Shown here in pieces: positions 7,982 to 36,324 of a stretch of 64,000 nt of DNA; position 1 is the stretch's first letter; each line of letters starts with the position of its first letter. Source of the stretch: Gordonia sp. (in: high G+C Gram-positive bacteria) (GTDB taxonomy: Bacteria; Actinomycetota; Actinomycetes; Mycobacteriales; Mycobacteriaceae); NCBI RefSeq assembly GCF_012515855.1, contig NZ_JAAYXO010000014.1, positions 4,472 to 68,471 of the forward strand, written 5' to 3'. The notes under the pieces are model-generated. The model was not told the origin of the DNA and searched no databases. It worked only from the letters and a program-made list of their open reading frames with translations. Made by a program: the position numbers and the translations under genes.

Positions 7982-8680
7982 ATGAGCACCGTCGAACGTA
8001 CCCTCCCCACCCCGGTCTACGCCGTCGTCGGCGCCGGTGACGTCGCCGTCCAGGAAGTCAAGGACGCCCTCGCCGAGCTGAAGACCCGCGCACAGTCGTC
8101 GCGTGAGCGCACCCAGACCCGCCTGGACGAGACCCGCGCCCGCCTGACCGAGCTGCCGACCGAGTTCCCCAGCGTCGAAGAGCTGCGCGCCAAGCTGACC
8201 ACCGAGGAGCTCCTCAAGGTCGCTGAGCCGTACATCGAGGCCACCACCGGCCTGTACAACTCGCTCGCGGAGCGTGGCGAGAGCGCTGTCGAGCGTCTCC
8301 GTCAGACCCCGTACGTCGAGGAGAACATCGCCCGCGTCGAGAAGGTCTACGCGGACGCTGTGGACCTGACCGAGGACGCCCTGGGCGCCGTGTCGACCCA
8401 GACCCGCGAGCTGGGCGAGCGCGCTGCCGCACTGGCCGGCCGCACCGCTGATCGCGTCGAGGACGCGGCTGTCGCCGCTGACGAGGTCTCGGAGAAGCTG
8501 CTCGACGCGGCTGCCGACATCGAGTCCGCAGGCGTCAAGGCCAAGGCTGACGCCGACGCCGCCGCCGAGAAGGTCACCGCGACCGCCGCACGCAAGCCGG
8601 CTGCGAAGCCCGCCGCCAAGAAGGCTGCACCCGCCAAGAAGGCCGCTCCGGCCAAGAAGGCTGCACCGACCGCCAAGTGA
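7982..8680 (+). CDS. hbhA: Heparin-binding haemagglutinin / TadA-MLDS lipid-droplet protein
   Basis: PVYAVVGAGDVAVQ N-terminus, coiled-coil body, C-terminal (KKAAPA)n repeats; AAGGAG RBS. Confidence 0.9.
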   Translation: MSTVERTLPTPVYAVVGAGDVAVQEVKDALAELKTRAQSSRERTQTRLDETRARLTELPTEFPSVEELRAKLTTEELLKVAEPYIEATTGLYNSLAERGESAVERLRQTPYVEENIARVEKVYADAVDLTEDALGAVSTQTRELGERAAALAGRTADRVEDAAVAADEVSEKLLDAAADIESAGVKAKADADAAAEKVTATAARKPAAKPAAKKAAPAKKAAPAKKAAPTAK

Positions 8681-8715
8681 TTCGCCCTGACGTGAGTCGC
8701 TAGCGAACAGCTGAC

Positions 8716-8752
8716 AGACCGGCCCGGACACCTCGTGTGTCCGGGCCGGTCT
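8716..8752. terminator. Bidirectional terminator hairpin
   Basis: Perfect 16-bp stem AGACCGGCCCGGACAC / GTGTCCGGGCCGGTCT between convergent genes, followed by TTCTGTT. Confidence 0.8.
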
Positions 8753-8772
8753 TTCTGTTCAGGGCCGGAGAT

Positions 8773-9600
8773 TCAGGGCCGGGGGTCTGGGCCGGACGTT
8801 GTCCGCGAGACGGAGGTGGGATCACTCGACCGGGGGAGCTTCGGCGGGTCGGCGGCGAACGCCTTCGGGTCGCCACCCGCGGCCACGATGCCTACCAGGC
8901 CGCTCCAGATCAGCATCGTGAGCTCATCGGTGATCTCGGTGGACGATCGATCCGGGTCGGTGATCCACTCCTCGACCGAACGGGTGGTCGCGCCGACGAT
9001 CGCGCGCGCCCAGGTGCGGGCCCCGGCCACCTGCGCACCGCGAGCGGCGAACCGAGCGTCCAGGGTGGATTCGAGCGCGCCGGCGAAGATCTTCTCGGCA
9101 TCGGCGGCCACCGGGCGGCTTCCAGACGGTCGGGCCATCGTGAAGCGATAGACGTTCGGGTCCGACGACACGGTCTCGACGTAGACGCTGATCGTCGCCT
9201 GCACCAGGTGGTAGTCGCCGATGTCGCCGGAGAGCGCCTCGATCAGCCGCGGCATGATCGTGGACTCGACATAGGCGAGGGTCACGGCGGCGGCGAGGTC
9301 GTTCTTGTCTGCGAAGTAGCGATACAGCACGGTCTTGGAGACCCCGATGTGGCGTGCGATGTCGTCCATCCCCGCGTCGGCGCCGAGGGCGCGGACCGCC
9401 TCGATGGTGCCCGTGGTCAACTCGGCGCGACGATCCTGCTTGTGCTTCTCCCAGCGCTGCTTGCGCCCATCGGATGCGACGGCCTCCACTGCAGGGGTGA
9501 GGACTCGCTGTTCCAACTCACGAGTCAACGTCGCAGCCGCGTTCACAGCTGCGCGTGCGGCGCTCGTCGGTATCGGTGGGTTCGGCATCACTGGCAACAC
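8773..9600 (-). CDS. TetR-family regulator (Rv0472c-like); start uncertain
   Basis: DGRKQRWEKHK...GMDDIARHIGVSKTVLYRYF HTH; divergent from the DUF445 gene as in mycobacteria. Confidence 0.88.
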   Translation of the reverse strand: MLPVMPNPPIPTSAARAAVNAAATLTRELEQRVLTPAVEAVASDGRKQRWEKHKQDRRAELTTGTIEAVRALGADAGMDDIARHIGVSKTVLYRYFADKNDLAAAVTLAYVESTIMPRLIEALSGDIGDYHLVQATISVYVETVSSDPNVYRFTMARPSGSRPVAADAEKIFAGALESTLDARFAARGAQVAGARTWARAIVGATTRSVEEWITDPDRSSTEITDELTMLIWSGLVGIVAAGGDPKAFAADPPKLPRSSDPTSVSRTTSGPDPRP

Positions 9601-9609
9601 TAGTAGGCC

Positions 9610-10947
9610 GTGGGTAAGACTGGACGAGTGTCGTCAACCTTCGATCACCGACCGCAGTCCGCAGCGGGCCCGACAGTCCCGGCGGGGCTCACCGCGAACG
9701 ACGCTCAACGGGCTCGCGACCTGCGGCGAATGAAGATCGTCGCCACCGGTCTGCTGTTGGGGGCGGCGGTCATCTACTTCGTCATGCGCTGGCTCGAACA
9801 CCGCGACGGACAGGATGTCGCAGCCTGGGTCGGGTACGTCCGCGCCACCGCGGAGGCCGGCATGGTCGGCGCGTTGGCCGACTGGTTCGCGGTCACGGCA
9901 CTCTTCCGGCAACCGCTCGGTCTGCCGATTCCGCACACCGCGCTGATCCCGCGGAAAAAGGACCAGATCGGCGAACAACTCGGCGGCTTCATTCAAGAGA
10001 ACTTCATGACGCGCGAGGTCATCGAGAACCGTGTGCAGTCCCTCGATCTGCCGCGCCGTCTCTCCACCTGGTTCGCCGACCCCGTCAACAAGCCGCGCGT
10101 CAACGACGAGGTCTCCCGAGTCTTCAAGCTGGTGTCGGAGATGCTGCGCGACGAGGACATCGAGCGATTCATCCAAGCGGTCCTCAAATGGGCGGCGGAG
10201 CCGGTGTGGGCGCCGCCGGCCGGACGGATCTTGGAGCAACTCGTCGCCGAAGACCGACTCGAACCGGTGATCCAGCTGGCCTGCGACCGCGCGCACGAGT
10301 GGGCGCTCGGCAGCGCACCGCTGGTCGATCGGGTGGTCGACCGCGACGGCCCGGCGTGGGCGCCGAAGTTCGTCAATCACCTGGTCGGCGACAAGATCTA
10401 CCGCGAACTCACCGAGTTCACCTACAAGGTGCGGGCCGATCCCAACCACGAACTTCGCGTGGCGATGCACGATTTCGTCGCCGACTTCGCGCAGGAACTG
10501 CAGCACGACGACGCCACCATCGCCAAGTTCGAGGGACTGAAGGCGGAACTCCTCGGGCGCGACGAGGTGACGGGAGCGGCGTCCACCGCGTGGCAGGCGG
10601 GCAAGGCCGTCATCGAGCAGATGCTCGACGACCCGGAGTCGACGCTGCGTACCTCGCTCTCGGACGCCGTCGTGCAGTTGGCGGAACGCATCCGAGACGA
10701 CGAGCCGCTGCAGGCCAAGATGAACGGCTGGACGATTCGCGCCGCTCGCCACGTTGCGGACAATTACTCGCCGGAGATCATCTCGGTCATCACCGAGACG
10801 GTGCGCGGGTGGGACGCCGAGGACACGAGTCGAAAGATCGAACTGCAGGTCGGTCGCGATCTGCAGTTCATTCGAATCAACGGCACGGTGGTCGGATCAC
10901 TGGCCGGGCTGACGATCTACACGGTGTCGGTGCTGCTCTTCTCGTAG
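9610..10947 (+). CDS. DUF445-family membrane protein (Rv0473-like); start may be 9628
   Basis: AEAGMVGALADWFAVTALFR...IPHTA and C-terminal GRDLQFIRINGTVVG signatures. Confidence 0.9.
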   Translation: MGKTGRVSSTFDHRPQSAAGPTVPAGLTANDAQRARDLRRMKIVATGLLLGAAVIYFVMRWLEHRDGQDVAAWVGYVRATAEAGMVGALADWFAVTALFRQPLGLPIPHTALIPRKKDQIGEQLGGFIQENFMTREVIENRVQSLDLPRRLSTWFADPVNKPRVNDEVSRVFKLVSEMLRDEDIERFIQAVLKWAAEPVWAPPAGRILEQLVAEDRLEPVIQLACDRAHEWALGSAPLVDRVVDRDGPAWAPKFVNHLVGDKIYRELTEFTYKVRADPNHELRVAMHDFVADFAQELQHDDATIAKFEGLKAELLGRDEVTGAASTAWQAGKAVIEQMLDDPESTLRTSLSDAVVQLAERIRDDEPLQAKMNGWTIRAARHVADNYSPEIISVITETVRGWDAEDTSRKIELQVGRDLQFIRINGTVVGSLAGLTIYTVSVLLFS

Positions 10948-33481: not shown

Positions 33482-33556
33482 GCCTCCTTAGCTCAGTGGT
33501 AGAGCACTCGCCTTGTAAGCGAGCGGTCGTCAGTTCAATCCTGACAGGGGGCTCCA
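33482..33556 (+). tRNA. tRNA-Thr: tRNA-Thr (anticodon TGT) with encoded CCA
   Basis: GCCTCCT/AGGGGGC acceptor stem, TAGCTCAGTGGTAGAGC D arm, CTCGC-CTTGTAA-GCGAG anticodon arm, TTCAATC T loop; TATACT -10 at 33466-33471. Confidence 0.97.
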
Positions 33557-33586
33557 ACCGGCCGGTCCCGTCTGGGCCCGGCCGGT
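33557..33586 (+). terminator. Hairpin after tRNA-Thr
   Basis: ACCGGCCGG...CCGGCCGGT arms. Confidence 0.6.
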
Positions 33587-33693
33587 GTATTCTCCCCGGT
33601 CGATCCACGGCGTACCGAGAATCCGGGGCGGATATGCGGTGATCCGCGTCGCCCGGCGACCTTTTCGAGGAGTTCTCTCCTTAATATTGGGGC

Positions 33694-36324
33694 GTGAACA
33701 GAACGCGGGATCGGCGGCCGACCAGTTGGCACCGTCGCGCGGGCATGCCCGTGCGGGTCTGGATGATGGTGTTGATCCTGGTGGGATTGGCGCACTGGGC
33801 CATCCCGAACTCGCGCTGGCTGCTGGTCCACATCTTCACGATCGGGCTGGTCGCGAACTCGATCCTGCTGTGGTCGCAGACCCTCGCCGAACGTTTCCTG
33901 GGACATCATCTGCCGCCGGAGCGGCGACCGTGGCAGATCGGTCGCATCTATGCCGTCAACGTCGGTCTGCTCGTGATCATCGTCGGCATGCTCGGCGCAT
34001 GGTGGCAGGTCACCATGGTCGGCGCCATCGTGATCGGCAGTGTGCTGGCGTGGCATGCGGTGGCGCTCGCCCTGTTGATCGGCGAGTCGCGGCGAGTGCG
34101 GGCCGAACGGGGCGAGGGCCCGGCAGAGAACGAAGGCAGCGCGTGGTTCTTCGTCGCGTCCGCCTGCCTGCTGCCCTTCGGCGCCGGCTTCGGAGTCGCG
34201 TTGGCCTACGGTTTCGCCGACCCCGAACAGGCGGGCTTCCTGGTGGCGCACCAGGCGCTCAACATTCTCGGGTTCCTGGGTCTGGCCGCCGCAGGTGTCC
34301 TTATGGTGATGTTCCCGCGCCTGCTGGGGGAGACGCAGGTGAGCACTCGGCGACGGCCGCCGGCACTCGCAGCGCTGGTGGTCGGAGTCGCGGTGATCTG
34401 CTCGGGCGCGCTCTCGGACCAACCGGTGGTCGCGGCCGTCGGCGTCGGGGTCTACCTCGTCGGGTGGCTGATCGTCGTCGCGCCGTTCGTGCCGGTGCTG
34501 CTGCGGCGACCGCCCGACTCCTACGCGTCGGCCTCGATCACCGCGGCGCTGCTCTGGCTCATCGGGTCGCTGACGGCTTACGCCGTGATCCTGCTGACCG
34601 GGCCGTTCGACGCCTCGCGCATCTCGCTGCTCACGGTGTGGTTCTTGGCGGGCTTCGCCGGTCAGTTGCTGCTCGGTGTGATGAGTCACCTGCTGCCGAC
34701 CATGATGGGCGGCGGCGAGGTGACGGTCGCGGGCAAGCGCGTGATGAACACCTGGTGGCTGTGGCGGGTGCTCGTGATCAACGCCGGCTTGCTGCTGTGG
34801 CTGATGCCGCTCACCAGCTGGGTCAAGGTGACCCTCTCGGCGCTGGTGATGCTGGCGTACATCCTGTTCCTGCCGATCATGATTCGCAGTGCGGTCGCCG
34901 CGATGGCAGTGCGGCGAGCGCAGGCGGCTGCGAGCGATGTCTCGGAGGCGCCCGCCGCCGCCCCGGCGACTGTCGGGTCTCGGGCGCCGCAACTCGGACT
35001 CCAAGGTGTCGCCGCCGCGACCGCACTCGCGCTGGTGATCTCGGTGGGGGTGGCGCTGGGCGGCGGCGGGACGCTGTCGGCCGACGACGCCTCCGGAGGT
35101 GTGGCACCCACCGGCCAGACGACGACCGTTCAGGTCGACGCGGTCGGCATGCGATTCACCCCGGAGACCATCACGGTGCCGAAGGGCGACCGCCTGGTCC
35201 TCACCGTGACCAACAAGGACGACATGGTGCACGACCTCGTCCTCGAGACCGGACAGAACACCGGTCGCCTCGCGCCGGGACAGTCCGCGACCGTCGACGT
35301 CGGCGTCGTCGGACGGTCGATCGAAGGCTGGTGCTCGATCATCGGCCACCGGCAGCAGGGGATGGTCCTGCACATCAAGGTCGAGGGCGACGACGGCTCC
35401 ACTGGCCACGACGGACACGGCGCCGGTGGTCCCGCGACCGGGCCCGCGGCCACGGTGGACTTCATGAAGGATCCGGGCCCCGACTTCCGGGCTCGCGATC
35501 CGCGGTTGGCTCCGGCACCCGCGGGAGAAGTGCACAAGTACACCTTCGAGGTGACCGAGGCGCCCGGCGAGATCGCACCCGGCACCACCGCCACTCGCTG
35601 GACGTATAACGGGGAGACGATGGGGCCGGTGCTCCGCGGCAAGCTCGGCGACACCTTCGAGATCACGCTGGTGAACAACGGCACCATGGCGCACTCCGTC
35701 GACTTCCACGCGGGCATGGTCTCGCCCGACACGAACATGCGCGACATCAACCCCGGCGAGCGCCTCGTCTACCGCTTCCGCGCCGAGCACACCGGCATCT
35801 GGCTGTATCACTGCGCGACGATGCCGATGCCGGTGCACCTGGCAGCCGGCATGTTCGGAGCCGTGGTGATCGATCCGCCGGATCTGGCTCCCGTCGACGC
35901 CGAATACCTGTTCACCCAGTCCGAGTGGTACCTCGGGCCGGATGGGGCGCCGATCGATGCCGACAAGGTGGCGGCCGGTATTCCCGACCTGGTGATGTTC
36001 AACGGCTACGCGAACCAGTACGTATACCGGCCGCTGCGAGCGAAGGTCGGCGACCGCATCCGGATGTGGGTGCTCGACGCCGGGCCCAACGAGCCGCTGT
36101 CGTTCCACGTGATCGGCAGCCAGTTCGACACCGTCTACAAGGAGGGCGCCTACCTGCTGCGGCGCGACAACGCCCTGCGCGGCGGATCGCAGGCACTGGG
36201 CCTCCTGCCCGCGCAGGGCGGTTTTGTTGAGATGACCTTCCTGGAACCGGGCACCTACACGTTCCTCAACCACCGCATGTTCGACGGCGACCGCGGCGCG
36301 ATGGGCAAGATCATCGTCGAATAG
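33694..36324 (+). CDS. nirK: Fusion of a multi-pass (NnrS-like) membrane domain, a cupredoxin and a copper nitrite reductase
   Basis: About 12-13 hydrophobic segments, then HDL...WCSIIGHRQQGM (type-1 Cu), then HSVDFH, YHCATMPMPVHLAAGM, SFHVIG, NHRMF; TAATAT -10 six nt before the GTG. Confidence 0.85.
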   Translation: MNRTRDRRPTSWHRRAGMPVRVWMMVLILVGLAHWAIPNSRWLLVHIFTIGLVANSILLWSQTLAERFLGHHLPPERRPWQIGRIYAVNVGLLVIIVGMLGAWWQVTMVGAIVIGSVLAWHAVALALLIGESRRVRAERGEGPAENEGSAWFFVASACLLPFGAGFGVALAYGFADPEQAGFLVAHQALNILGFLGLAAAGVLMVMFPRLLGETQVSTRRRPPALAALVVGVAVICSGALSDQPVVAAVGVGVYLVGWLIVVAPFVPVLLRRPPDSYASASITAALLWLIGSLTAYAVILLTGPFDASRISLLTVWFLAGFAGQLLLGVMSHLLPTMMGGGEVTVAGKRVMNTWWLWRVLVINAGLLLWLMPLTSWVKVTLSALVMLAYILFLPIMIRSAVAAMAVRRAQAAASDVSEAPAAAPATVGSRAPQLGLQGVAAATALALVISVGVALGGGGTLSADDASGGVAPTGQTTTVQVDAVGMRFTPETITVPKGDRLVLTVTNKDDMVHDLVLETGQNTGRLAPGQSATVDVGVVGRSIEGWCSIIGHRQQGMVLHIKVEGDDGSTGHDGHGAGGPATGPAATVDFMKDPGPDFRARDPRLAPAPAGEVHKYTFEVTEAPGEIAPGTTATRWTYNGETMGPVLRGKLGDTFEITLVNNGTMAHSVDFHAGMVSPDTNMRDINPGERLVYRFRAEHTGIWLYHCATMPMPVHLAAGMFGAVVIDPPDLAPVDAEYLFTQSEWYLGPDGAPIDADKVAAGIPDLVMFNGYANQYVYRPLRAKVGDRIRMWVLDAGPNEPLSFHVIGSQFDTVYKEGAYLLRRDNALRGGSQALGLLPAQGGFVEMTFLEPGTYTFLNHRMFDGDRGAMGKIIVE

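What the first reader, a model, noticed from the sequence alone, without database searches (positions are those of the whole stretch)
33694..36324. Single-chain membrane domain + electron-donor cupredoxin + NirK
Seen: about 450 residues with 12-13 TM helices and intramembrane His (VHIFTIG, AHQALNILGF, SHLLP). Next comes a cupredoxin with a full type-1 site (H...C-x4-H-x4-M), a His-rich linker, and both NirK domains with all type-1/type-2 ligands plus the catalytic Asp and His. No signal peptide is evident, and no NO reductase or other denitrification gene is nearby. Established: cupredoxin-tethered NirKs exist; from memory similar fusions occur in other actinobacteria but I know of no biochemical study. 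Inference: a self-contained membrane-to-copper electron wire, possibly heme-containing and quinol-fed, or an NO-handling domain coupled to the NO source.
Basis: partly seen in the sequence, partly recalled or inferred. Interest (0 to 1): 0.72.

Follow-up and report, generated by a model that had tools for sequence, protein, structure and literature searches.

The report
Membrane-anchored cupredoxin–NirK nitrite reductase fusion
This Gordonia gene encodes a known but biochemically unstudied actinobacterial type of copper nitrite reductase, whose 12-helix membrane domain of "unknown function" is predicted here to share the fold of heme-copper oxidase subunit I and of the NO-response protein NnrS.

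Summary
One 876-aa ORF (33694-36324, +) encodes 13 TM helices, a type-1 copper cupredoxin and a complete NirK core with every copper and catalytic ligand. Topology is N-in/C-out, so TM13 replaces a signal peptide. The 64-kb window has no other denitrification gene.

The architecture is not new. A ~900-aa actinobacterial NirK with a 400-aa TM domain "of unknown function" plus a CX4HX4M cupredoxin is described in PMC4770552. This is the Gordonia orthologue.

What the analysis adds:
- The TM domain has no curated family but belongs to a large one (1,190 clusters). It occurs alone, with the cupredoxin, or with cupredoxin and NirK.
- Its AlphaFold model matches only heme-copper oxidase subunit I (cbb3 CcoN, NorB). 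A model of authentic NnrS gives the same top hits.
- It is an internal triplication of a 4-helix unit.
- Only two His (H46 on TM2, H186 on TM6) are invariant, not the six of a true oxidase.
- Profile comparison with NnrS is negative.

Best reading (about 0.45): a cofactor-binding membrane module redox-coupled to the tethered cupredoxin, feeding menaquinol electrons to NirK. An NnrS-like NO-handling role is the main rival.

Verdict: new member of a known kind, with a testable hypothesis for the open question.

The parts
33682..33687 (+). Putative -10 element TAATAT, 6 nt upstream of the GTG start; this suggests a leaderless mRNA
   Evidence: A TAnnAT element sits 6-8 nt before the start codon in Gordonia, Rhodococcus and Speluncibacter orthologues. 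No full sigma-70 consensus was found. This is an inference.
33694..36324 (+). Whole CDS: 876-aa TM-cupredoxin-NirK fusion, including the stop codon
33694..34923 (+). 12-TM domain (residues 1-410) with a predicted HCO-subunit-I-like / NnrS-like fold. Invariant H46, H186, G193 and R358; near-invariant Q324, W288, N363 and H121.
   Evidence: AF2 pLDDT 84.3, pTM 0.84. Foldseek PDB top 15 hits are all HCO subunit I, TM-score about 0.6. Conservation. Internal 4-helix triplication. No Pfam or NCBIfam family.
34924..35073 (+). Cytoplasmic linker plus TM13 (residues about 436-458, nt 34999-35067), which acts as the signal-anchor carrying the copper domains outside
   Evidence: hydropathy; positive-inside count
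35089..35373 (+). Tethered type-1 copper cupredoxin (residues 466-560); ligands H513, C547, H552, M557
   Evidence: Pfam Cupredoxin_1; aligned to the N-terminal cupredoxin of HdNiR 2dv6; motif positions
35374..35526 (+). Gly/Pro/Ala-rich linker between the cupredoxin and the NirK core; contains GHDGHG but is not truly His-rich
35527..35928 (+). NirK core domain I: T1Cu H667/C707/H715/M720; T2Cu H672/H706; catalytic D670
   Evidence: Cu-oxidase_3; TIGR02376; PDB NirK hits around E=1e-42
35929..36321 (+). NirK core domain II: catalytic H805 (SFHV motif) and the third T2Cu ligand H860, which is donated to the neighbouring subunit of the trimer

Best explanation
Identity (about 0.9 confident). The gene is the Gordonia orthologue of the long actinobacterial copper nitrite reductase. 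It is a single polypeptide, presumably a homotrimer because the T2 copper site is built across subunits. The 12-TM domain sits in the cytoplasmic membrane. A 13th helix carries a type-1 copper cupredoxin and a complete clade-II NirK core to the outer face, where nitrite is reduced to NO.

Mechanism proposed for the membrane domain (inferred). It is a cofactor-binding redox module with the fold of heme-copper oxidase subunit I. It has lost the binuclear centre and keeps one site, probably a heme b, formed by the invariant H46 (TM2) and H186 (TM6) about 7-10 residues below the outer surface. It takes electrons from the menaquinol pool and hands them to the tethered cupredoxin T1Cu. That copper passes them to the NirK T1Cu and then to T2Cu.

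The result would be a self-contained menaquinol:nitrite oxidoreductase for bacteria that have no soluble periplasmic cytochrome c or pseudoazurin.

Shown: the domain order, all copper ligands, the topology, the predicted fold, the conservation pattern and the conserved TM-cupredoxin-NirK partnership. Inferred: the cofactor, the quinol oxidation and the direction of electron flow.
For: - Complete NirK and cupredoxin ligand sets, and colinearity with HdNiR.
- N-in/C-out topology with 13 TM helices.
- A confident AF2 model whose only good PDB matches are HCO subunit I: cbb3 CcoN, ba3, aa3, cNOR and qNOR. E is down to 4e-4 and TM-score is 0.57-0.63. The next fold class scores TM 0.28.
- Internal 4-helix triplication: TM1-4 against TM5-8 gives probability 89%, E=2e-6.
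- Sub-threshold Pfam COX1 hits in 3 of 66 standalone relatives, best E=1.9e-5.
- H46 and H186 are 100% invariant in 135 relatives. They lie on TM2 and TM6, the pseudo-symmetric helices that carry ligands in HCOs.
- The partnership is conserved whether fused or split. In Micromonospora the TM gene overlaps a separate cupredoxin-NirK gene. A standalone TM gene also sits next to a small cupredoxin gene.
- The cupredoxin stays fused to the TM domain when NirK is absent: 32 of 160 relatives, and 26 of 35 mid-length forms keep CX4HX4M. This argues that the TM domain and the T1 copper exchange electrons.
- In HdNiR the tethered T1CuN receives the electron first (PMC7201279).
- The electron donor to NirK in Gram-positives is unresolved, and menaquinol-dependent activity has been reported (PMC3475470).
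- Actinobacteria lack soluble cytochrome c (established knowledge of the bcc-aa3 supercomplex).
Against: - No cofactor has been demonstrated.
- Only two strictly invariant His remain. The HCO helix VII His-His and helix X His-x-His ligands are absent.
- I could not read model coordinates, so the H46-H186 distance is unknown. In canonical HCO geometry the helix II and helix VI His bind different metals.
- No quinol-binding motif was identified.
- 94 of the 160 closest relatives are TM-only. In Corynebacterium an orthologous locus keeps an intact TM gene with no copper domain within 8 kb. The domain therefore has a function that does not need NirK.
- In HdNiR the tethered copper is about 24 A from the core T1Cu, and its role is debated.
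- The HCO link rests on a predicted structure plus weak sequence hits below the Pfam threshold.
Confidence: 0.45

Rival explanations
1. NO-handling module. The TM domain is a functional analogue of NnrS or of a degenerate NO reductase. It binds, sequesters or transforms the NO released by the fused NirK, or protects against NO generally. It may receive electrons from the cupredoxin, as HCO subunit I receives them from its cupredoxin subunit II. The cupredoxin itself would be reduced by another donor, such as the QcrC dihaem cytochrome of the bcc complex.
For: - The predicted fold and the top PDB hits are the same as for authentic NnrS: 9g6b_A, 8smr_E and 4xyd_A at TM-score 0.61.
- '12-TM HCO-like domain + TM helix + cupredoxin' mimics HCO subunits I + II.
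- Standalone TM genes sit beside hemerythrin and DUF2249 genes, a nitroreductase and an ArsR-type regulator.
- The TM domain persists without NirK or cupredoxin.
- No NOR or hmp lies near the gene.
Against: - Profile-profile comparison with NnrS is negative, probability 0.2%.
- The conserved His of NnrS (TM2, TM9, TM10) and of this family (TM2, TM6, TM4) are placed differently.
- No binuclear-centre ligand set exists, so catalytic NO reduction of the HCO type is unlikely.
- The mechanism of NnrS is itself unknown.
- The rest of the genome could not be checked for nor or hmp.
Confidence: 0.27
2. Non-redox role. The TM domain is a membrane scaffold: an anchor, a docking or oligomerisation platform (for example beside the bcc-aa3 supercomplex), or a copper-delivery or maturation device for the extracytoplasmic copper domains. 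Electrons would reach the cupredoxin from elsewhere.
For: - No cofactor motif of a known family was found, and no Pfam, NCBIfam or PDB sequence hit for the window's domain.
- H34/H46/H186 lie near the outer face and could form a Cu-binding triad in the fused subfamily.
- Extracytoplasmic copper enzymes need copper loading.
Against: - One helix (TM13) is enough to anchor the protein.
- About 400 residues are kept with invariant buried His, Arg, Gln and Asn across more than 1,000 sequence clusters.
- The HCO fold is not known as a transporter.
- H34 is only 60% conserved.
- TM-only orthologues have no copper domain to serve.
Confidence: 0.15
3. Decaying or non-functional fusion: the protein is not an active nitrite reductase in this organism.
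For: - The gene is isolated from any denitrification cluster.
- Only trace metatranscriptome coverage was found.
- The NCBIfam equivalog score of 156.7 is below the cut-off of 296.3.
Against: - The 876-codon ORF is intact with GC3 of 0.89.
- Every copper and catalytic ligand is present.
- Orthologues at 56-79% identity are full length across Gordonia, Rhodococcus, Prescottella, Tomitella and Speluncibacter.
- 25 of 26 long relatives keep the NirK motifs.
- The low equivalog score is expected for clade-II and class-III NirKs.
Confidence: 0.05

Closest known systems
Long actinobacterial NirK (about 900 aa; Propionibacterium/Cutibacterium acnes type), described by Ellis et al. 2007 as cited in Decleyre et al. 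2016, PMC4770552
   Same: It has the same three-part architecture: an N-terminal TM domain of about 400 aa, a CX4HX4M cupredoxin and a NirK core. It comes from the same phylum, and the NirK is clade II (SFHV motif).
   Different: Nothing architectural differs; this is a Gordonia orthologue. The literature calls the TM domain 'of unknown function'. The fold assignment, the family census and the conservation map here go beyond what I found in print.
[quoted passage not shown]
   Same: It aligns colinearly over cupredoxin, linker and both core domains (residues 490-873, E=6.6e-44). The T1CuN motif C-x4-H-x4-M and the core C-x7-H-x4-M spacing are identical.
   Different: HdNiR is a soluble periplasmic protein with a signal peptide and forms a hexamer. 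It has no membrane domain and takes electrons from a soluble cytochrome c. Here the cupredoxin is preceded by 13 TM helices.
Heme-copper oxidase superfamily subunit I (cbb3 CcoN, NorB, qNOR; Pfam COX1 PF00115)
   Same: The predicted 12-TM fold is the same (TM-score about 0.6), with pseudo-threefold 4-helix repeats. Conserved His lie on TM2 and TM6, as on HCO helices II and VI. A cupredoxin partner follows an extra TM helix, like subunit II. Some relatives give weak COX1 hits.
   Different: It lacks the helix VII His-His and helix X His-x-His ligands. The window protein has no Pfam COX1 hit, and relatives score 16-18 bits against a threshold of 34.8. The cupredoxin carries T1Cu rather than CuA. 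No binuclear centre is possible with the conserved residues.
NnrS (Pfam PF05940), the haem- and copper-containing NO-response membrane protein
   Same: It is also about 400 aa with 12 TM helices. The predicted fold and the top PDB matches are the same. It has a conserved His near the outer end of TM2 and a genomic or regulatory association with nirK.
   Different: No profile-level similarity was found (hhalign probability 0.2%). The other conserved His are placed differently. NnrS is not fused to copper domains in the examples seen.

Membership tests
Copper-containing nitrite reductase (NirK) | Type-1 Cu ligands His-Cys-His-Met in core domain I | tested here: met
   H667, C707, H715, M720; aligned to solved NirKs
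Copper-containing nitrite reductase (NirK) | Type-2 Cu ligands (3 His, one from domain II of the neighbouring subunit) plus the catalytic Asp and His | tested here: met
   H672, H706, H860; D670; H805 in the SFHV motif
Copper-containing nitrite reductase (NirK) | Score above the curated equivalog cut-off (TIGR02376) | tested here: not met
   156.7 bits against a cut-off of 296.3. The Micromonospora partner NirK also scores below it, at 181 bits. This is expected for divergent clade-II actinobacterial NirKs.
Copper-containing nitrite reductase (NirK) | Nitrite to NO activity and a homotrimer | not testable with these tools
   Needs an enzyme assay and a structure
N-terminal cupredoxin-tethered NirK (HdNiR class) | An extra cupredoxin with a full T1 site, N-terminal to and colinear with the core | tested here: met
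   Cupredoxin_1 at 473-536; H513/C547/H552/M557; 2dv6 and 6tfd align from residue about 490 to 873
Actinobacterial TM-cupredoxin-NirK (about 900 aa) class | N-terminal polytopic TM domain of about 400 aa + CX4HX4M cupredoxin + NirK in one polypeptide | tested here: met
   description in PMC4770552; 32 such relatives among the top 160; full-length orthologues in Gordonia, Rhodococcus and others
Heme-copper oxidase subunit I (PF00115) | 12-TM pseudo-threefold fold | tested here: met
   The AF2 model and Foldseek give HCO subunit I as all of the top 15 PDB hits; internal 4-helix repeats. This rests on a prediction only.
Heme-copper oxidase subunit I (PF00115) | Six canonical His ligands (helix II; VI; VII x2; X x2) | tested here: not met
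   Only H46 (TM2) and H186 (TM6) are invariant. There is no His on TM7, and TM10 has Q324.
Heme-copper oxidase subunit I (PF00115) | Pfam COX1 match above the gathering score | tested here: not met
   No hit for the window domain. 3 of 66 relatives hit at 16-18 bits against 34.8, covering COX1 helices I-IV against family TM5-8.
NnrS (PF05940) | Sequence or profile similarity to NnrS | tested here: not met
   No Pfam hit; hhalign of 135 against 120 sequences gives probability 0.2%; 1 of 66 relatives hits at E=0.03
NnrS (PF05940) | Same three-dimensional fold | tested here: met
   The NnrS model (pLDDT 91.9) gives the same top PDB matches with the same scores. There was no direct superposition of the two models.
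NnrS (PF05940) | Haem b and copper content | not testable with these tools
   Needs purified protein

The most novel reading that the evidence does not exclude
The TM domain defines a large, uncurated third branch of heme-copper-oxidase-subunit-I-like proteins, beside true HCOs and NnrS. It has been reduced to one haem site ligated by H46 and H186. It works as a bc1-independent menaquinol:cupredoxin oxidoreductase, a general route for exporting respiratory electrons to extracytoplasmic copper enzymes in Actinobacteria. NirK would be only one of its clients.
Probability: 0.25. Interest if true: 0.8.

Novelty: new member of a known kind. Interest (0 to 1): 0.5.

Why it matters
How NirK is supplied with electrons in Gram-positive and mycolate bacteria, which lack soluble cytochrome c and pseudoazurin, is unresolved. 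The 400-residue membrane domain fused to actinobacterial NirKs has been 'of unknown function' since it was first noticed.

A predicted heme-copper-oxidase/NnrS-like fold, two invariant intramembrane His and a conserved partnership with a T1-copper cupredoxin turn that into a concrete question that mutagenesis can answer.

It may also shed light on NnrS, whose mechanism is likewise unknown. The family is common in skin and mucosal Corynebacterium, in Cutibacterium and in environmental Gordonia and Rhodococcus, so it is relevant to NO production and tolerance in those niches.

Tried and rejected
- Pfam and NCBIfam scans of the TM domain alone found nothing useful.
- Profiles A2 and A4 against PDB sequences gave no meaningful hit.
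- hhalign of the TM family against NnrS gave probability 0.2%, so NnrS membership is rejected.
- hhalign against a NorB profile, both globally and per repeat, was insignificant. My NorB profile is too narrow (Neff 1.6), so the residue-level register with HCO ligands stays unresolved.
- A local NorB or NnrS HMM against the family gave only noise-level hits, apart from a shared TNAxxVW-like helix motif.
- The MFS gene upstream of the Corynebacterium orthologues is not specifically NarK-like, so it gives no nitrite link.
- An exact-sequence look-up of the window protein found nothing on record.
- RNA evidence is limited to a few short, low-depth metatranscriptome contigs, which is not informative about regulation.
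- The sigma-70 consensus scan found no promoter. The -10/leaderless idea rests only on comparative alignment.
- The short matches shared by many runs at about 33.5 kb turned out to be a tRNA gene, not a regulatory element of the fusion.
- I could not measure the H46-H186 distance or superpose the models, because coordinates are not returned.
Full report
**1. The observation**

The window contains an 876-codon ORF at 33694-36324 on the + strand, starting with GTG. Its GC3 is 0.89 in a genome of about 68% G+C, which marks it as the real frame rather than the 912-aa antisense ORF.

Pfam finds Cupredoxin_1 at residues 473-536 and multicopper-oxidase domains at 621-729. NCBIfam finds the copper nitrite reductase model over 613-876. 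Against PDB sequences the best hit is the cupredoxin-tethered HdNiR (2dv6), aligned colinearly from residue 490 to 873 at E=6.6e-44. Dozens of NirK structures follow at about 1e-42.

All ligands are present:

| Site | Residues |
|---|---|
| Tethered cupredoxin T1 | H513, C547, H552, M557 |
| NirK core T1 | H667, C707, H715, M720 |
| NirK T2 | H672, H706, H860 |
| Catalytic | D670; H805 in the clade-II SFHV motif |

The first 460 residues hold 13 hydrophobic helices. Lys+Arg counts are 24 in the predicted cytoplasmic loops and 2 in the outer loops. The N-terminus is therefore inside, TM13 ends outside, and the copper domains are extracytoplasmic. That answers the missing signal peptide.

Two details of the finding need correction. 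The linker is not His-rich (3 His in 57 residues). Of the three quoted membrane His, only H46 and H186 are conserved.

**2. Surroundings**

The gene stands alone.
- Upstream lie a tRNA-Thr(UGU) gene (33482-33556) and a divergent ThrE-type exporter, a MerR/TipAS regulator and otsA/otsB.
- Downstream is a convergent short-chain dehydrogenase and a PHB-depolymerase-like hydrolase.
- About 40 ORFs scanned across the 64 kb are lipid, central or purine metabolism. None is nor, hmp, nar or nos.

Orthologues share a TAnnAT element 6-8 nt before the start codon. This supports the annotated GTG start and suggests a leaderless transcript. That point is an inference.

The organism is a Gordonia: the TM domain is 79% identical to those of G. 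aichiensis and G. hydrophobica. Transcript evidence is limited to a few short metatranscriptome contigs inside the gene.

**3. Is it known?**

Yes, as an architecture. Decleyre et al. 2016 (PMC4770552) report the roughly 900-aa NirK of Propionibacterium acnes, with a 400-aa predicted TM domain 'of unknown function' and a CX4HX4M cupredoxin. They note that many actinobacterial NirKs share it. Searches of the open literature found no fold assignment, cofactor analysis or enzymology for the TM domain. Databases call the G. caeni orthologue a 'multicopper oxidase domain-containing protein' or a 'copper-containing nitrite reductase'.

**4. What the membrane domain is**

It matches no Pfam or NCBIfam family. 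An exhaustive profile search finds 1,190 clusters at 50% identity with E<=1e-3, of which 281 have E<=1e-30.

Among the 160 closest relatives:

| Architecture | Count |
|---|---|
| TM only | 94 |
| TM + cupredoxin | 32 |
| TM + cupredoxin + NirK | 32 |
| TM + NirK | 2 |

All 26 relatives of at least 800 aa keep the cupredoxin T1 motif, and 25 keep the NirK motifs.

An AlphaFold2 model of residues 1-410 is confident (pLDDT 84.3, pTM 0.84). Against the PDB its top 15 hits are all subunit I of heme-copper oxidases or NO reductases. These include cbb3 CcoN (9g6b, 8smr, 3mk7), ba3, aa3, cNOR NorB (4xyd) and qNOR. E-values go down to 4e-4 and TM-scores are 0.57-0.63 over all 12 helices. The next fold class, rhodopsins, scores 0.28.

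Two independent sequence observations agree with this.
- The domain is an internal triplication of a four-helix unit, the hallmark of HCO subunit I. TM1-4 against TM5-8 gives probability 89% and E=2e-6. TM1-4 against TM9-12 gives E=2e-4.
- Three of 66 standalone relatives hit Pfam COX1 below threshold (best E=1.9e-5, 16-18 bits). All three map COX1 helices I-IV onto family TM5-TM8.

**5. The NnrS question**

Profile-profile comparison with 120 authentic NnrS sequences is negative, at probability 0.2%. However, an AF2 model of NnrS (pLDDT 91.9) returns the same top PDB hits with the same scores: 9g6b_A, 8smr_E and 4xyd_A at TM-score 0.61.

The two families therefore share a predicted fold and a link to nirK, but I cannot show they are homologous. 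NnrS is a haem- and copper-containing membrane protein of NO-responsive regulons, and its mechanism is unknown (PMC3345576 and PMC1274295).

**6. Conserved residues**

Conservation across 135 relatives:

| Conservation | Residues |
|---|---|
| 100% | H46 (7th residue of TM2), H186 (10th residue of TM6), G193, R358 (TM11) |
| >=98% | Q324 (TM10), W288 (TM9), N363 (TM11) and several Gly/Pro |
| 90% | H121 (middle of TM4) |
| 60% | H34 |
| Variable | position 332, mostly Tyr |

With the deduced topology, H46 and H186 lie about two to three helical turns below the outer surface. H121, Q324, R358 and N363 lie mid-membrane to inner.

In genuine NorB the ligands are H53 (helix II), H186 (helix VI), H237/H238 (helix VII) and H326/H328 (helix X). 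The family thus keeps His only on the helix II-like and helix VI-like positions. It cannot build a binuclear centre.

The exact residue register with HCOs is unresolved. The fold is pseudo-symmetric, and all three repeats weakly resemble NorB helices I-IV.

**7. Comparative genomics**

The partnership with NirK is conserved whether fused or split. In Micromonospora a standalone TM gene (29% identical) overlaps the start of a separate cupredoxin-NirK gene, which is followed by a ywiC-like gene. The operon begins with an ArsR-type regulator and an unknown polytopic membrane protein, and it faces hemerythrin, DUF2249 and nitroreductase genes. The same regulator-unknown-TM arrangement with DUF2249 recurs in another actinobacterium without NirK. 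One standalone TM gene lies beside a small cupredoxin gene.

In Corynebacterium a single syntenic locus carries three forms: the full fusion (C. kroppenstedtii group), TM + cupredoxin, or TM only (C. tuberculostearicum, C. striatum, C. aurimucosum). The locus order is an MFS gene, the TM gene, a convergent RNase-H-like gene and a DUF6474 gene.

The copper domains were therefore lost stepwise, or less likely gained, while the TM domain stayed intact with its invariant residues. It follows that the TM domain has a function that does not strictly need NirK, and that its tightest partner is the cupredoxin.

**8. Mechanism**

I commit to the following as most likely, at about 0.45. The TM domain is a redox module descended from, or convergent with, HCO subunit I. 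It retains one cofactor site at H46/H186, probably haem b. It is coupled to the tethered T1 copper and carries menaquinol electrons to NirK outside the cell.

This fits several points:
- the HdNiR precedent, in which the tethered T1CuN takes the electron first (PMC7201279);
- the unresolved donor problem for Gram-positive NirK (PMC3475470);
- the absence of soluble cytochrome c in Actinobacteria (established knowledge).

The main rival, at about 0.27, reverses the logic. The domain handles NO like NnrS, perhaps fed by the cupredoxin as HCO subunit I is fed by subunit II. The TM-only orthologues and the hemerythrin/DUF2249 neighbourhoods favour this reading. The missing binuclear ligands argue against catalytic NO reduction. 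A non-redox scaffold or copper-loading role (about 0.15) and a non-functional gene (about 0.05) are less likely.

**9. Verdict**

The object is a new member of a known kind. The added value is a fold-level and family-level description of the 'unknown' domain, which makes its function directly testable. Interest is 0.5.

The main limits are these:
- The HCO/NnrS link rests on predicted structures and sub-threshold sequence hits.
- The rest of the genome could not be searched for nor, hmp or nar.

Noticed in passing
window 33482-33556 (+): A tRNA-Thr(UGU) gene lies 137 bp upstream of the fusion gene. The adjacency is kept only in the closest Gordonia relatives (L003, L004, L021). A GC-rich hairpin follows it.
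   Followed up: partly
window 33682-33687; upstream regions of L003-L029: A conserved TAnnAT element sits 6-8 nt before the start codon across orthologues, suggesting a leaderless mRNA. No -35 consensus is present.
   Followed up: partly
L012, L013, L014, L016, L017, L019, L022: about 40-60 nt upstream of the orthologous start codons: A conserved palindrome CTACGA-N6-GTAG (for example ctacgacaatgggtag) lies upstream of the Rhodococcus-type orthologues. It is a candidate operator for an unidentified regulator and is not evident in the window.
   Followed up: no
L041-L054, L077-L079 and others (Corynebacterium TM-only genes); cluster of P0017: TM-only proteins of about 430 aa are named 'copper oxidase' in NCBI and UniRef although they contain no copper-oxidase or cupredoxin domain. 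This is probably transitive annotation from the fused relatives.
   Followed up: partly
L081:6862-8004 and L087:5925-7004: An uncharacterised polytopic membrane protein (359-380 aa; the two copies are 49% identical; no Pfam or NCBIfam family) is encoded directly upstream of, and overlapping, the standalone TM gene. It follows an ArsR/HTH_20 regulator, with DUF2249 and hemerythrin genes divergent. It may be a further subunit.
   Followed up: partly
L059 (C. kroppenstedtii subsp. demodicis Df-1, complete genome) 8001-10735: The TM reading frame stops 27 codons after the TM domain, while cupredoxin and NirK similarity continues in another frame. This is a possible frameshift or pseudogene, consistent with ongoing loss of the copper domains in Corynebacterium.
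   Followed up: no
L002 and L025 (Rhodococcus sp. JCM 9791 in the case of L025; draft JCM assemblies): The orthologous fusion is split into 2-3 called genes (TM, cupredoxin, Cu-oxidase fragments). These are most likely sequencing frameshifts in draft assemblies rather than real split genes.
   Followed up: no
window 33535-36273 (-): A 912-aa antisense ORF overlaps the whole gene. It is an artefact of high G+C; the GC3 filter keeps only the + frame.
   Followed up: yes
Corynebacterium loci L001, L036, L039, L041-L079, L085: An MFS_1 transporter gene always lies immediately upstream of, and co-directional with, the TM(+/-cupredoxin+/-NirK) gene, with a divergent LysR regulator. The MFS is not specifically NarK-like, and its substrate is unknown.
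   Followed up: partly
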